This document shows positions 31,221-34,578 of a DNA stretch of 64,000 nucleotides, one piece after another; the stretch's first letter is position 1, and every line of letters starts with the position of its first letter. A program made the translations under genes and the position numbers. This stretch comes from a virus (lineage: Duplodnaviria > Caudoviricetes). The notes beneath the pieces are model-generated. The model saw only the letters and a program-made list of their open reading frames with translations. It did no database searches and was not told the origin of the DNA. The DNA lies in the IMG/VR virus record IMGVR_UViG_3300014057_000005, positions 32,001-96,000 of that record. The stretch is one strand, 5' to 3'.

Positions 31221-31694
31221 CTAACTTATTCTTCTGGCGTATTGGTTGCCAGACGCGAGAGTAACGCCGAGCACCTTATCGAAATGCGGTTCATCGCCCG
31301 GAATGTAACGCCCGAATTTAACGACAATGTTGGCAAATTTTTTTAGCTCTTCGAGCTTGTCCGCAATCTCATTCTCATAGTAGCCAGTGTAAATGACGAT
31401 GTCGTCTTTGGTGTACTGACGCAGCATAGACACGAGGAATTTAAGGTCTTCCCACGAATCAAACGGTTCAAGCCCTTGCATCACAATTGCCTCAGATATC
31501 ATGTTGGAGCGATACATCTCAACAAGGTCGTAGGTAATAATGTCAACGTCCGGCTCGTGAGCCAGCATACCGTTATGGCAGACTGGCTCGCCGCATTCTT
31601 GCTCGCATTTGAAATCGCAGTAGGGAAATTGAATCACCATTGCCGGAACTTTATAGTTCACAAAGTCCTCAGCAATCACTCCCTTAATTTTCAT
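31221..31694 (-). CDS. nrdG: Anaerobic RNR activating enzyme (radical SAM)
   Basis: CDFKC......CHN, GLEPF, YTGY, KFGRY, ASGNQ. Confidence 0.85.
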   Translation of the reverse strand: MKIKGVIAEDFVNYKVPAMVIQFPYCDFKCEQECGEPVCHNGMLAHEPDVDIITYDLVEMYRSNMISEAIVMQGLEPFDSWEDLKFLVSMLRQYTKDDIVIYTGYYENEIADKLEELKKFANIVVKFGRYIPGDEPHFDKVLGVTLASGNQYARRIS

Positions 31695-34578
31695 GCGATA
31701 TCCCCCGCTGTTTTGTTAATAGGTTCCCAACGCCTCATACCATACTCTGCGGTGCGCTCGGTTGACCACGTCTTGGTCTTTGTGTAGAAACCAACGATCC
31801 GCGTGTATTCCGAATCGACAGGATTCCCACATTCCGGGCAAACCTTACCGTAAAAGGCGTGATTGTGCTTGCAAGCTTGGATTTTTGTATTGAACGCAAA
31901 GTACGTGACTCCTTGGTCGGAGATGTAGTTTGTCATCTTCCAAGCCTTGTCGAAGCTGTCAAACGGCGCGTCAATGTTGGCGTGGAGAATTGACCCGCCA
32001 TTGCAAAAGCCGTCAAACATCGCTTGGATCCTTACGCGCTCTTGGAGCGTGGTCTGGATGCCAAGAGGAATAAACTGATTCCCATAAAGGGGTAGTTCAT
32101 AGATTTTTGCCTCCGGGTAGAAGAACTTATCCTTCTTCATGAGTTTCGCCGCAGCGCTTTCGCCCGGGATCTGCTCCGTATTCACCATGTAATCACAGTG
32201 ATTGTCGGCGATAAATCGGTCTGCTTCCTCACGCATTACCTTGAAGATCCGCTCGCCAAATCTGGCCGCGTCTTTCGTATAATAGGCGTTGCCGAGGCTA
32301 TCCTTGCGAACATACCCGAACCGCTTCATGGTTTCAAAAATACCAATGAAACCAATGGTGTTGTACAGGTGCTCGAAGTCTACAAGACCATACGAGAAGT
32401 TGGGCAGAAGCCCCTTCTCCACATTGCGACGAATAATGCTTCGCACACAATCGAGCGCTTGCAGGTCTAACTTCGTTCTGCGCCGCAGTTCCTGAAGGTA
32501 CTCTGCCTCGCTGTTGGTGTCTAAAGCGATCCTTGCAAGGTTGATTGTAGACACCTTGACGGATCCAACTTTAAGCGCCGTTCCGCCGATGGAATTAAAA
32601 TCAGTAACCCAATATTTTCATACCGGTCTGGACTATTTCTTATACGCTTTTCGCGCACACCCCCATTTCCAGAGACGTATCAATAGTCCCCGTACTTCTC
32701 TTGGCGAGAATAGTCTCTACAGGCTCCTAGAAATAGGCTTCCCACGAGATTAGCATATCTTACGACTTAGCCTTCCTCGTTAGCCAGCTTTGCGCTGACC
32801 CCGCCGATAAGCGGTAAAGGGGTGATAGGGCATTTTTACATACCCGAGGTCTTCTATATTTGACTTAAGGCGGCAATTATGAGTAATAATCCCGTTCGCC
32901 AAAGTGAAAATTGGTTCGGCTTCCGCATCTAAAATTTCAAGGCAGTACGATTCCTTAATGGAACCATCAAGCCTCTCGATTGACTTAATGCGTACCCAGT
33001 GATCTACTTCTTCAAACGGAAGGAAGTCATCGAGCGTAAGGTCTTTCGATTCAACGTACGGCTTTCCATGAACTTTATTAAGGTGGTTGGCCGTTGTCAT
33101 AAGTTCTGCCCCGTTATGCAAAGTAATTTTGTATTCTACAGGGATTTCAAATCGGTTAACTTTGCACCTTACAAGTCGCTCATTTGACCGCACGAAAAAG
33201 TATTCTTTTTTGCTTCCGGCGTAATGACTATAGAGGTCATCAATCCTCTCTGTTTTTTTTACGCCGTCCTCGCATTCCCAGTAGTCAATTTTTGTATCAG
33301 GCGCAAGCGGACAATTCGACAGGCTATTTACAGAGTCATCTACAAACAGGTTGCTATCCGACCATTTCATATTGTGGCGAATCGCCCATTTTGCGAATTC
33401 CTCGTCCACGAACTTCCCGTCTTTTCTCAGCAATGAGATTGTCGATACAGGAAACGTGAACATATTTTGACTTCTAATCTCAGACATGACTTCCATGTAA
33501 AGCTTCTGGAACTCAATCATCTCGTCCTCGAAGTCAATCATAAAACTGCCGTCCGGGAAGGTACTGCCGCCAAAGAGAGCCTCAAAATACGGCCTATCGA
33601 AAACCGATGTATTTGTGAAGGCGCTTTGTGAACCATCTCGGACATATGGCTGATTCCGTATAAATCCAACCTTATGATTTTGGTTGGCACTGACTATTTC
33701 TTACACGCATAAAATAGCGTGAACACCCATTTCCAGAGGCGTATCAATAACCTCTGTACTCCATCGTCATGGATAGTCGATACAGGTTCCCAAATCATTT
33801 GGGCTTCCCACGAGATTACCATGCCATATTGCCAAAACAGCAAGGCTTCCTCGTTAGCCAGCTTTGCGCTGACCCCGCTGATAAACGGAAAAGGTGTTAC
33901 CGGCGAATTTCACAGCACCGCGTACAAAAATCGCTGAAAGTTCTGCCTCGCATACTCGGTTTCACGATGCGCCGTCTTGATTCCAAGATAATCATGCTGC
34001 ACATCCTGTCGCCAGAAGTAATACATGTACGGGATCAGGTTAGGAAGTCCAACAGCGCCCGAACTTCTGTTGCTGGCAAAACTGATAAACTCTTTTACAA
34101 AGTCTACAAACGTAATTAGATGCTTTGCAGGTGAAGGATTCTGCCCTTCGATAAAGTACAGACCCTTCTCAGCAAGATCTTTAAGGTCGTAGGCAAAACA
34201 ATAATGCTTAAACGTGGAGGTGTCTGCGTCATGCATATACAGTTCACCAATCCACTCAGATTTCAGCCATTCATTGGCGACTCTAAAGCCATAACGCTTC
34301 TGCATCTCATAATAAATCTTGTTGAATGCCAGAAGCTTACGGTGCGGCTTCGGCATCTCGTTAAGAAGCGTCACCATGTCTTTGTGCGAAACATTGCTAT
34401 TACCGTCAATTGACGAATCCGCCACAGTGTCTGTGTCAACAAAATTGTCAATAAAGTCGGTATAGCTTAACTGAGTATCAGAAAATCCGTTAATCGCGGC
34501 AATTTCTGTGCCGTAGTCACTCTGCATCCGGTTATACTGAGTGACAAAATTTTTATCAAGCTTGATATTAATGTTCAT
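31691..34578 (-). CDS. nrdD: Class III ribonucleotide reductase, join(34578..33917, 33656..32842, 32601..31691); 795-aa precursor, 650 aa after intein removal
   Basis: Spliced frame reads YAV|NQPYVRDGSQSAFTN, SNC|CRL and LGY|FNSIGG; glycyl-radical loop YTRIVGFY; C-terminal zinc site. Confidence 0.92.
32602..32841 (-). mobile_element. Group I intron 2 in nrdD (240 nt, no ORF)
   Basis: 5' exon ends in U (GGGU), intron ends in G; IGS AAAAU-GCCC forms P1 and P10; GACUA and AAGAAAUAGUC P7 strands. Confidence 0.88.
32876..33310 (-). mobile_element. Mini-intein (145 aa) in the NrdD active-site CC motif
   Basis: PLAPDTKI block A, TANH block B, YCLEI block F, NGIITHN|C block G; no endonuclease domain. 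Confidence 0.88.
33657..33916 (-). mobile_element. Group I intron 1 in nrdD (260 nt, no ORF)
   Basis: 5' exon ends in U (CGGU), intron ends in G; IGS AUUC-GCCG pairs with both exons; GACUAU and AAGAAAUAGUC P7 strands. Confidence 0.88.

What the first reader, a model, noticed from the sequence alone, without database searches (positions are those of the whole stretch)
32602..33916. Twin ORF-less group I introns in nrdD with near-identical cores but retargeted guide sequences
Both introns (260 and 240 nt) share long stretches such as GCGGGGTCAGCGCAAAGCTGGCTAACGAGGAAG, TAATCTCGTGGGAAGCC, TATTGATACG, TCTGGAAATGGG and TAAGAAATAGTC, yet each IGS matches its own exons (AUUC-GCCG with CGGU|GAAU; AAAAU-GCCC with GGGU|AUUUU). 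Neither encodes a homing endonuclease. Inference: a small intron lineage spreading to new sites by reverse splicing or in-trans mobilisation, with IGS adaptation.
Basis: partly seen in the sequence, partly recalled or inferred. Interest (0 to 1): 0.7.

Follow-up and report, generated by a model that had tools for sequence, protein, structure and literature searches.

The report
Two endonuclease-less introns in phage nrdD
The anaerobic ribonucleotide reductase gene of this uncultured 108-kb phage is really split by two small self-splicing (group I) introns, but each is an endonuclease-less copy of a mobile intron that sits at the same spot in other phages, so this is a new example of a known kind and not a freshly re-aimed intron.

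Summary
On the minus strand, nrdD is exon 1 (34578-33917), intron A (33916-33657, 260 nt), exon 2 (33656-32842, holding a 146-aa mini-intein), intron B (32841-32602, 240 nt) and exon 3 (32601-31691).

- **Junctions.** The predicted junctions give one 795-aa frame. Public alleles that are 97-99% identical and lack intron A or B read FLYAVNQPYV and EDLGYFNSIGG, exactly as predicted.
- **Fold.** Both introns fold into the same subgroup-IA-type core, and covariation supports it (94% of cells paired against 77.5% in shuffles).
- **"Near-identical cores" is overstated.** Identity is about 70%, and most listed blocks are motifs of a large phage intron family.
- **Site orthologues.** Each site holds a family intron with a GIY-YIG homing endonuclease in other phages: site A in L065, site B in L010 and many others. 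The two endonucleases are 38% identical.
- **Reading.** A and B are separate homing-intron lineages that each lost the endonuclease gene. They are not a recent retargeting within this genome.
- **What A and B share uniquely.** Only the P2.1 hairpin, which suggests gene conversion between them.
- **Polymorphism.** Intron A, the intein and intron B are each present or absent among near-identical phages.

Splicing itself is untested. The scan has noted comparable twin introns in another phage.

The parts
33917..34578 (-). nrdD exon 1 (codons 1-220 plus the first two bases of Val221)
   Evidence: ORF. Matches T. maritima NrdD residues 3-215. Intron-A-less alleles read straight through.
33657..33916 (-). 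Intron A: 260-nt ORF-less group I intron in phase 2. It follows a U and ends in G.
   Evidence: MFE fold recovers P3, P2, P2.1, P4, P5, P6a, P7.1, P7.2, P8 and P9. Covariation on alignment A3. L065 has an intron at the same site.
33901..33908 (-). Internal guide sequence of intron A (AUUC-GCCG): the P10 and P1 strands
   Evidence: Read directly. The L065 orthologue has GAUUU-GCCG, which fits its own exons.
32842..33656 (-). nrdD exon 2 (last base of Val221 to the first base of the Tyr codon)
   Evidence: Intron-less relatives are colinear.
32876..33313 (-). 146-aa mini-intein (CPLAPD...ITHN as read from Cys), at the catalytic SNCCRL motif in exon 2
   Evidence: One search gives the coordinates. 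Weak Pfam Intein_splicing match, 24 bits, below the cut-off. It is absent from most relatives and from the 97-98% identical alleles P0135 and P0128, which read SNCCRL.
32602..32841 (-). Intron B: 240-nt ORF-less group I intron in phase 1. It follows a U and ends in G.
   Evidence: (Rfam 29.7 bits, E 3e-5). Orthologues at the same site in L006, L010, L015, L022, L008, L027, L021 and L025.
32828..32836 (-). Internal guide sequence of intron B (AAAAU-GCCC)
   Evidence: Read directly. The same AAAU-GCCC guide is kept in site-B orthologues.
31691..32601 (-). nrdD exon 3 (carries the glycyl-radical domain)
   Evidence: Matches T. maritima NrdD residues 357-642. Intron-B-less alleles P0128 and P0139 read EDLGYFNSIGG.
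33846..33878 (-). 33-nt block in intron A that is identical to intron B (end of P2, the P2.1 hairpin CAGCGCAAAGCUG, J3/4, start of P4)
   Evidence: This P2.1 sequence was found in no other family member or collection.
32772..32804 (-). The same 33-nt block in intron B
   Evidence: The protein read-through ...QRKAG* shows the hairpin is also in intron B of alleles that lack intron A.
33667..33688 (-). P9 hairpin of intron A, with the 10-nt loop AAAAUCAUAA
   Evidence: Among introns, the loop is shared only with the L065-type site-A intron.
31221..31694 (-). nrdG-like activase gene directly downstream of nrdD (context)
   Evidence: 157-aa ORF. Assigned from its position and Cys-rich N-terminus; no family scan was run.

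Best explanation
Introns A and B are two different members of one large family of phage group I introns of subgroup-IA type, with P7.1 and P7.2.

How the family looks:
- Full-length members carry a GIY-YIG homing endonuclease gene in the P6a loop.
- They home into fixed sites of nrdD, DnaE-like, topoisomerase and other genes.

What happened in this phage:
- The site-A element and the site-B element have each lost the endonuclease gene, by independent deletions. What remains are compact ribozymes.
- These ribozymes must still splice for NrdD to be made.

Inferred splicing mechanism (not shown):
- Guanosine attacks after the U.G pair of P1.
- P10 aligns the 3' exon.
- The terminal G is released.
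- The intein then removes itself from the protein.

An occupied site is also no longer a target for the matching endonucleases of co-infecting relatives.

The identical P2.1 hairpin in A and B most likely comes from gene conversion between the two co-resident introns, with B as donor.

Shown: the anatomy, the junctions, the fold with covariation, the site orthologues, and the presence/absence polymorphism. Inferred: catalysis, loss of the endonuclease gene (rather than never having had it), and the conversion.
For: Junctions:
- One 795-aa frame results, colinear with 4COI.
- About 60 of 80 related nrdD loci have no insert at either site.
- Alleles 97-99% identical that lack A or B read exactly across the predicted joins.

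Fold:
- 49 pairs counted on 11 ORF-less members give 94.1% paired against 77.5% in shuffles.
- 26 pairs change on both sides, and slid controls give 32-42%.
- MFE folds of A and of B alone give the same helices.

Family and sites:
- Pattern and HMM scans find members at site B in many phages and at site A in L065, L067 and L070-72.
- Other nrdD sites are at about aa 113, 179 and 228 (L043 has a further family insert between aa 336 and 483).
- Up to four family introns sit in one nrdD gene.

Endonucleases:
- Pfam GIY-YIG is found in both the L065 and the L010 ORFs, and the two are 38% identical.
- The last 18 aa of the L010 ORF overlap core sequence that B retains.

Lineage markers:
- B's 3' half is 82-85% identical to site-B orthologues.
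- A shares its site, guide, P7.1 and the unique L9 loop with L065.

The genome holds only two copies.
Against: - No RNA or biochemical evidence of splicing exists for this phage.
- Rfam scores are below the gathering threshold.
- The whole-core tree has weak support. An AU test rejects neither A+B nor A+L065 as a clade (p 0.37 and 0.58).
- Overall, A is slightly closer to B (72%) than to L065 (67%), so A's orthology to L065 rests on a few discrete characters.
- Loss of the endonuclease gene, rather than later gain in relatives, is not demonstrated.
- The polymorphic alleles were seen only as proteins.
Confidence: 0.8

Rival explanations
1. One ORF-less intron copied itself within this genome to a second nrdD site, by reverse splicing or by mobilisation in trans, and its guide sequence then adapted. 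On this view A and B are recent paralogues.
For: - A's best overall match is B, at 72%.
- They share an identical 33-nt block that includes a P2.1 hairpin seen nowhere else.
- The AU test does not reject an A+B clade.
- Intron A is present or absent among near-identical phages, so it moved recently.
Against: - A and B differ at about 30% of positions, with compensated changes in P3, P5, P6a, P7.1, P7.2, P8 and P9. The host alleles with and without A differ by only 1-3%.
- Both sites have endonuclease-bearing orthologues elsewhere with the same guides.
- A's L9 loop is shared with L065 and not with B.
- No reverse transcriptase was looked for, and the record encodes no endonuclease of the three families scanned (GIY-YIG, HNH, HNH_3).
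Confidence: 0.07
2. The identical P2.1 block reflects common descent and not gene conversion. On this view the site-A and site-B lineages of this phage group are sister lineages that kept an ancestral hairpin.
For: - The ML tree places the A group next to the site-B group, with 50% support.
- P2.1 sits between strongly conserved flanks, so only 13 nt are informative.
Against: - P2.1 is the most variable hairpin of the family, with 22 distinct versions in 29 members.
- The site orthologues L065 and L010 have other P2.1 sequences.
- Co-resident family introns in L021 and L140 do not share P2.1.
- The rest of A and B is far more diverged than this block.
Confidence: 0.2
3. The introns are decayed relics that no longer splice, and nrdD is a pseudogene in this phage.
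For: - There is no experimental evidence of splicing.
- Rfam scores are sub-threshold.
- MFE z-scores are modest, -2.5 and -1.5.
Against: - All three exons are open and conserved up to the predicted joins.
- Every position that is invariant in the 11 aligned ORF-less members is present in both A and B, and every core helix pairs in A and B.
- Many variants of the intron-bearing allele persist in public assemblies.
- nrdG follows intact.
Confidence: 0.05

Closest known systems
Group I introns plus inteins in phage ribonucleotide reductase genes: B. subtilis phage SPbeta bnrdE/bnrdF, Brochothrix phage A9 nrdE, Lactococcus phage 949 nrdD (as summarised in PMC3653736)
   Same: Several self-splicing elements sit in one RNR gene. 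A non-coding intron and an intein occur together in nrdD (phage 949). nrdD was the RNR gene most often split in that survey.
   Different: The NrdD here is of another type, closest to T. maritima NrdD, with few relatives in cultured phages. The insertion sites are not shown to be the same. Here two members of one intron family sit in the same gene.
Jug (jumbo gut) phages: nrdD split into up to four pieces by group I introns and inteins, with metatranscriptome support for splicing (PMC12880540)
   Same: These are uncultured gut phages with nrdD broken by small group I introns of about 200 nt, endonucleases and inteins. The fragmentation is polymorphic between phage groups.
   Different: Jug phages have 360-402-kb genomes, against a 108-kb record here. 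I did not test whether the introns are related. That paper reports no family-level mapping of sites.
Phage T4 nrdD (sunY) intron with I-TevII, and the T4 td and nrdB introns (PMC2988022, PMC1865063)
   Same: Group I intron in a phage nrdD gene. GIY-YIG endonucleases occur in some relatives. ORF-less or endonuclease-defective versions are known.
   Different: Relatedness of the T4 introns to this family was not tested. The only enterobacterial-phage relative found is the nrdD intron of E. coli Vequintavirus phages, which is a distant family member at a nearby but different site. In the family here, two hairpins follow the 5' strand of P3.
Staphylococcus phage Twort orf142, one gene with three related group I introns (Landthaler and Shub 1999; recalled from memory and mentioned in an earlier scan note)
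   Same: Several related ORF-less group I introns sit in a single phage gene.
   Different: The gene is different. I did not compare the sequences with tools. The only cultured-phage intron of that broad group tested, Bacillus phage Bastille's DNA-polymerase intron, gets no match from the family HMMs. It shares only a P4-P5 motif.
Topoisomerase subunit B intron of Lactococcus 949-group phages LW81 and P1048 (records KY554777 and MN552145, where it is unannotated)
   Same: It is a member of the same family. It aligns over the whole core with compensated helices and is ORF-less.
   Different: It sits in another gene with another guide sequence, and has a longer P6a insert of about 80 nt.

Membership tests
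Group I intron (Rfam RF00028) | Score at or above Rfam's gathering threshold (50 bits) | tested here: not met
   B scores 29.7 bits (E 3e-5) and A 16.9 bits (E 0.23). Nothing passes at gathering. The single Rfam model handled the 5' domain of this family poorly.
Group I intron (Rfam RF00028) | P1 with a U.G pair at the 5' splice site, an internal guide that also forms P10 with the 3' exon, and a terminal G | tested here: met
   Read directly for both introns. The same arrangement is kept, with matching changes, in orthologues L065 and L010.
Group I intron (Rfam RF00028) | Conserved core: P3-P8 and P4-P6 domains, with the P3/P7 pseudoknot | tested here: met
   Covariation count on A3: 94.1% paired, 26 pairs with changes on both sides, 0 of 500 shuffles as high. 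P7 is invariant, so it says nothing either way. MFE folds agree.
Group I intron (Rfam RF00028) | Guanosine-dependent self-splicing | not testable with these tools
   Needs an in vitro splicing assay or RNA data. The indirect support is that intron-less alleles read exactly across the predicted joins.
Subgroup IA (IA2-like phage introns) | Extra hairpins P7.1 and P7.2 between P7 and the 3' strand of P3 | tested here: met
   Both hairpins are present and all their pairs covary (helices 10 and 11).
Subgroup IA (IA2-like phage introns) | Textbook order P1-P2-P3-P4 | tested here: not met
   The covarying 5' strand of P3 lies directly after the guide sequence. Two hairpins (named here P2 and P2.1) lie between it and J3/4. 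I could not check whether this order has been described before.
Mobile (homing) group I intron | An intron-encoded homing endonuclease | tested here: not met
   A and B hold no such ORF. Orthologues at both sites carry GIY-YIG ORFs.
Mobile (homing) group I intron | Presence/absence polymorphism at a fixed site among close relatives | tested here: met
   Alleles 97-99% identical exist with and without A, and with and without B. This is protein-level evidence only.

The most novel reading that the evidence does not exclude
This intron family may be a structurally distinct branch of subgroup IA. The 5' strand of P3 comes before two inserted hairpins, and the first hairpin's loop (UUAUCA) forms a covarying kissing contact with the P7.2 loop (UGAUA). 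Co-resident members may also swap modules by gene conversion: the P2.1 hairpin is identical only in A and B. Together with the three elements that come and go among 97-99% identical alleles, this would give a natural system in which the whole homing cycle and intron-intron recombination can be read in one gene.
Probability: 0.3. Interest if true: 0.5.

Novelty: new member of a known kind. Interest (0 to 1): 0.35.

Why it matters
- **Annotation.** Gene callers split this nrdD into three ORFs. The true product is one 795-aa precursor, about 649 aa after protein splicing.
- **Biology.** It adds a well-documented case to the known pattern that phage RNR genes collect self-splicing elements.
- **A population to study.** Nearly identical phages carry different combinations of two introns and an intein, and relatives carry the matching endonucleases. 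Questions about gain, loss, co-conversion and protection from endonuclease attack could be answered from existing sequence data.
- **The method lesson.** Similarity between two co-resident introns is not evidence of local retargeting until site orthologues elsewhere have been checked.

Tried and rejected
- **Rfam.** At gathering threshold it finds only two tRNAs. The intron hits appear only in E-value mode.
- **Exact 29-mer of the shared block.** No match in viral contigs or metagenome contigs.
- **Intron-less site-A junction and an exon-1 20-mer.** No matches.
- **The look-up of encoding contigs was closed.** The DNA of the polymorphic alleles, and therefore co-conversion tracts and intron A variants, could not be examined.
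- **Phylogeny.** The whole-core ML tree and AU test were inconclusive. I relied on discrete characters instead.
- **L9-loop pattern scan.** Apart from the L065-type loci, it returned only chance matches in coding DNA.
- **The 'site A' intron of L021, L025, L064, L099 and L108.** It lies about 7 codons downstream (VRD|..QSAF) and is a different site. The E. coli Vequintavirus nrdD intron also lies at another nearby site.
- **Bacillus phage Bastille's polymerase intron.** It is not matched by the family HMMs.
- **Enterocloster phage hit.** It lies among unannotated hypothetical genes and was not followed up.
- **Endonuclease in the own genome.** No GIY-YIG, HNH or HNH_3 match, and no relative of either intron endonuclease beyond 18 residues that overlap B's core.
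Full report
**What is there**

The window is part of a 108-kb IMG/VR virus record, with a completeness estimate of 82%. On the minus strand a class III ribonucleotide reductase gene (nrdD) is broken into three ORFs.

| Piece | Window coordinates |
|---|---|
| Exon 1 | 34578-33917 |
| Intron A | 33916-33657 (260 nt) |
| Exon 2 | 33656-32842 |
| Intron B | 32841-32602 (240 nt) |
| Exon 3 | 32601-31691 |

The three exon translations match Thermotoga maritima NrdD (4COI) in order: residues 3-215, 222-330 and 357-642. Exon 2 also holds a 146-aa insert with intein ends, at 33313-32876.

**Are the junctions right?**

Three lines of evidence agree.

- *The group I rules are met*. Each 5' exon ends in U opposite a G of the guide, each intron ends in G, and the bases 5' of the P1 strand pair with the 3' exon (P10).
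  - A: CGGU with GCCG, and GAAU with AUUC.
  - B: GGGU with GCCC, and AUUUU with AAAAU.
- *Most relatives have no insert.* Of 80 related nrdD loci (72-80% identical in exon 1), about 60 have no insert at either site and align straight through both.
- *Near-identical alleles lack one or the other intron.* The protein collection holds alleles 97-99% identical to this gene that lack one element or another. The 512-aa and 367-aa forms read ...RFLYAVNQPYVRDGSQ... across site A. The 391-aa forms read ...NIEDLGYFNSIGGTALKV... across site B. Both are exactly the predicted joins.

**Are they group I ribozymes?**

Rfam's single model gives only sub-threshold hits: B 29.7 bits and A 16.9 bits, against a gathering score of 50. 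I therefore tested structure directly.

Pattern scans and HMMs built from A and B recovered many relatives. Twenty-nine distinct members could be parsed into the same string of elements. I aligned 11 ORF-less members (alignment A3) and counted pairs for a structure of 49 pairs: P3, P2, P2.1, P4, P5, P6, P7, P7.1, P7.2, P8 and a loop-loop contact.

- 94.1% of cells pair, against 77.5% in shuffles.
- 26 pairs change on both sides, and 0 of 500 shuffles reach this.
- Slid controls give 32-42%.
- P7 and P6 are invariant, so they say nothing either way.
- Thermodynamic folds of A and of B alone return the same helices.

P7.1 and P7.2 place the family in subgroup IA.

Two features are not textbook.

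- The covarying 5' strand of P3 lies directly behind the guide sequence, and two hairpins follow it before J3/4.
- The loop of the first hairpin (UUAUCA) is complementary to the P7.2 loop (UGAUA). The pair covaries (UACCA with UGGUA) in three other lineages.

I could not check whether this arrangement has been described before.

**How alike are A and B?**

- Identity is 72% over the parsed core, 79% in the 5' half and 65% in the 3' half.
- Most helices differ by compensated changes.
- TAATCTCGTGGGAA, TATTGATACG, TGGAAATGGG and TAAGAAATAGTC are family-wide. They occur, for example, in the topoisomerase-B intron of Lactococcus phages LW81 and P1048 and in introns of DnaE-like genes.
- What A and B share to the exclusion of all others is the P2.1 hairpin CAGCGCAAAGCUG, inside a 33-nt identical block.

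**Where do the two introns come from?**

*Site B* is occupied in more than 15 loci by family introns of about 950 nt that carry a 252-aa GIY-YIG ORF in P6a. These include L006, L010, L015, L022, L008, L027, L021 and L025. B's 3' half is 82-85% identical to the nearest of them, and its guide is the same.

*Site A* is occupied at exactly the same phosphodiester bond (GCGGT|RAATCA) in L065, L067, L070, L071 and L072. The intron there is 1290 nt with a 338-aa GIY-YIG ORF, and its guide GAUUU-GCCG fits its own exons.

- A shares with the L065 intron the site, P7.1 and a 10-nt L9 loop (AAAAUCAUAA). Nearly all other members have GAAA at that position.
- A collection scan for that loop found only A's relatives of the L065 type.
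- The two endonucleases are homologous: 38% identical over 227 aa, with the same repeated helix-turn-helix modules. Ribozyme and endonuclease therefore diversified together.

The family also sits at nrdD codons about 113, 179 and 228/229, and L043 has a further family insert between aa 336 and 483. L021 has four family introns in one nrdD gene. A scan for the common P2 sequence shows many further insertion contexts.

*Limits of the phylogeny.* The alignment has 278 columns, which is too short. The ML tree puts A with L065 and B with the site-B group, but with 34-50% support. An AU test rejects neither A+B nor A+L065.

**Polymorphism**

At least four combinations are seen as proteins at 97-99% identity.

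| Intron A | Intein | Intron B | Evidence |
|---|---|---|---|
| present | present | present | This record |
| absent | present | present | 512-aa forms, on contigs up to 99 kb |
| absent | absent | present | 367-aa form, which reads SNCCRL |
| present | absent | absent | 391-aa form, paired with a 222-aa exon-1 ORF that has the same contig count and longest-contig size |

- Exon-1 haplotypes are shared between A-bearing and A-less alleles, so A was gained or lost recently.
- An intein cannot be removed at the RNA level and the contigs are long, so these are DNA alleles and not spliced transcripts. I could not fetch the DNA to confirm this.
- The read-through ...TAYQRGQRKAG* shows that intron B already carries the P2.1 hairpin in alleles without A. 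B is therefore the likely donor if the shared block arose by conversion.

**Mechanism**

The best reading is two homing-intron lineages that have each lost the endonuclease gene. The deletions were independent, because the P6a stubs of A and B are unrelated.

The ribozymes are kept because NrdD needs them. The catalytic Cys lies in exon 2 and the glycyl-radical domain in exon 3.

The record encodes no GIY-YIG, HNH or HNH_3 protein. Any present mobility would therefore depend on recombination with, or endonucleases of, co-infecting relatives.

The review literature treats reverse splicing as unproven and describes both the homing cycle and collaborative homing (PMC3984707).

**Comparison with what is known**

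- Multiple introns and inteins in phage RNR genes are well documented. Examples are SPbeta, Brochothrix phage A9 and Lactococcus phage 949 (PMC3653736).
- In jumbo gut phages nrdD is split into up to four pieces, with RNA-seq support for splicing (PMC12880540).
- This case is a new member of that kind.
- An earlier scan note reports comparable twin introns of one family at clustered sites in another phage.

Noticed in passing
window 32873-33313 (minus strand): The intein-less alleles of the same gene (P0135, P0128, P0139; 97-98% identical) read SLSNCCRLKS. This record reads SLSNC-PLAPD...ITHN-CRLKS. The inserted piece is therefore exactly PLAPD...ITHN, between the two Cys. Either the intein starts with Pro, or it uses the first active-site Cys as its own residue 1 and the spliced protein loses one Cys. 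A Cys in the block-F-like YCLEI and the ending THN recall class 3 inteins (recalled from memory).
   Followed up: partly
L021:2380-7590 (identical sequence in L005 and L024); L025:5300-10710: In these IMG/VR phages nrdD is cut by four introns of this same family, at about aa 113, 179 and 228 and at site B. Each has an insert of 730-1070 nt. L025 has a further 1230-nt interruption at about aa 638 that the family HMMs do not match.
   Followed up: partly
L003:2489-2776 (Lactococcus phage LW81, KY554777 58339-58626): An unannotated ORF-less intron of this family splits the topoisomerase subunit B gene of the 949-group phages LW81 and P1048. The records list two separate 'subunit B' CDS.
   Followed up: partly
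family-wide; in intron A, window 33893-33898 with 33722-33727, and 33879-33883 with 33742-33746: The 5' strand of P3 lies before two hairpins, which is not the textbook order. The first hairpin's loop can pair with the P7.2 loop. This contact covaries (UACCA with UGGUA) in L005 (intron starting at about 9761), L059 and L063.
   Followed up: partly
L037:2960-3215 (Escherichia phage AlexBoehm, MZ501048): The nrdD gene of E. coli Vequintavirus phages carries a distant relative of this family. The record annotates it as a joined CDS. It sits about six codons downstream of site A and uses the same CGGU/GCCG P1 pairing.
   Followed up: partly
L097, L008, L018, L033: In these relatives the insert at the intein position is about 600 nt longer than here. 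They probably carry the full-length form of the intein with an endonuclease domain. The one in this window is a mini-intein.
   Followed up: no
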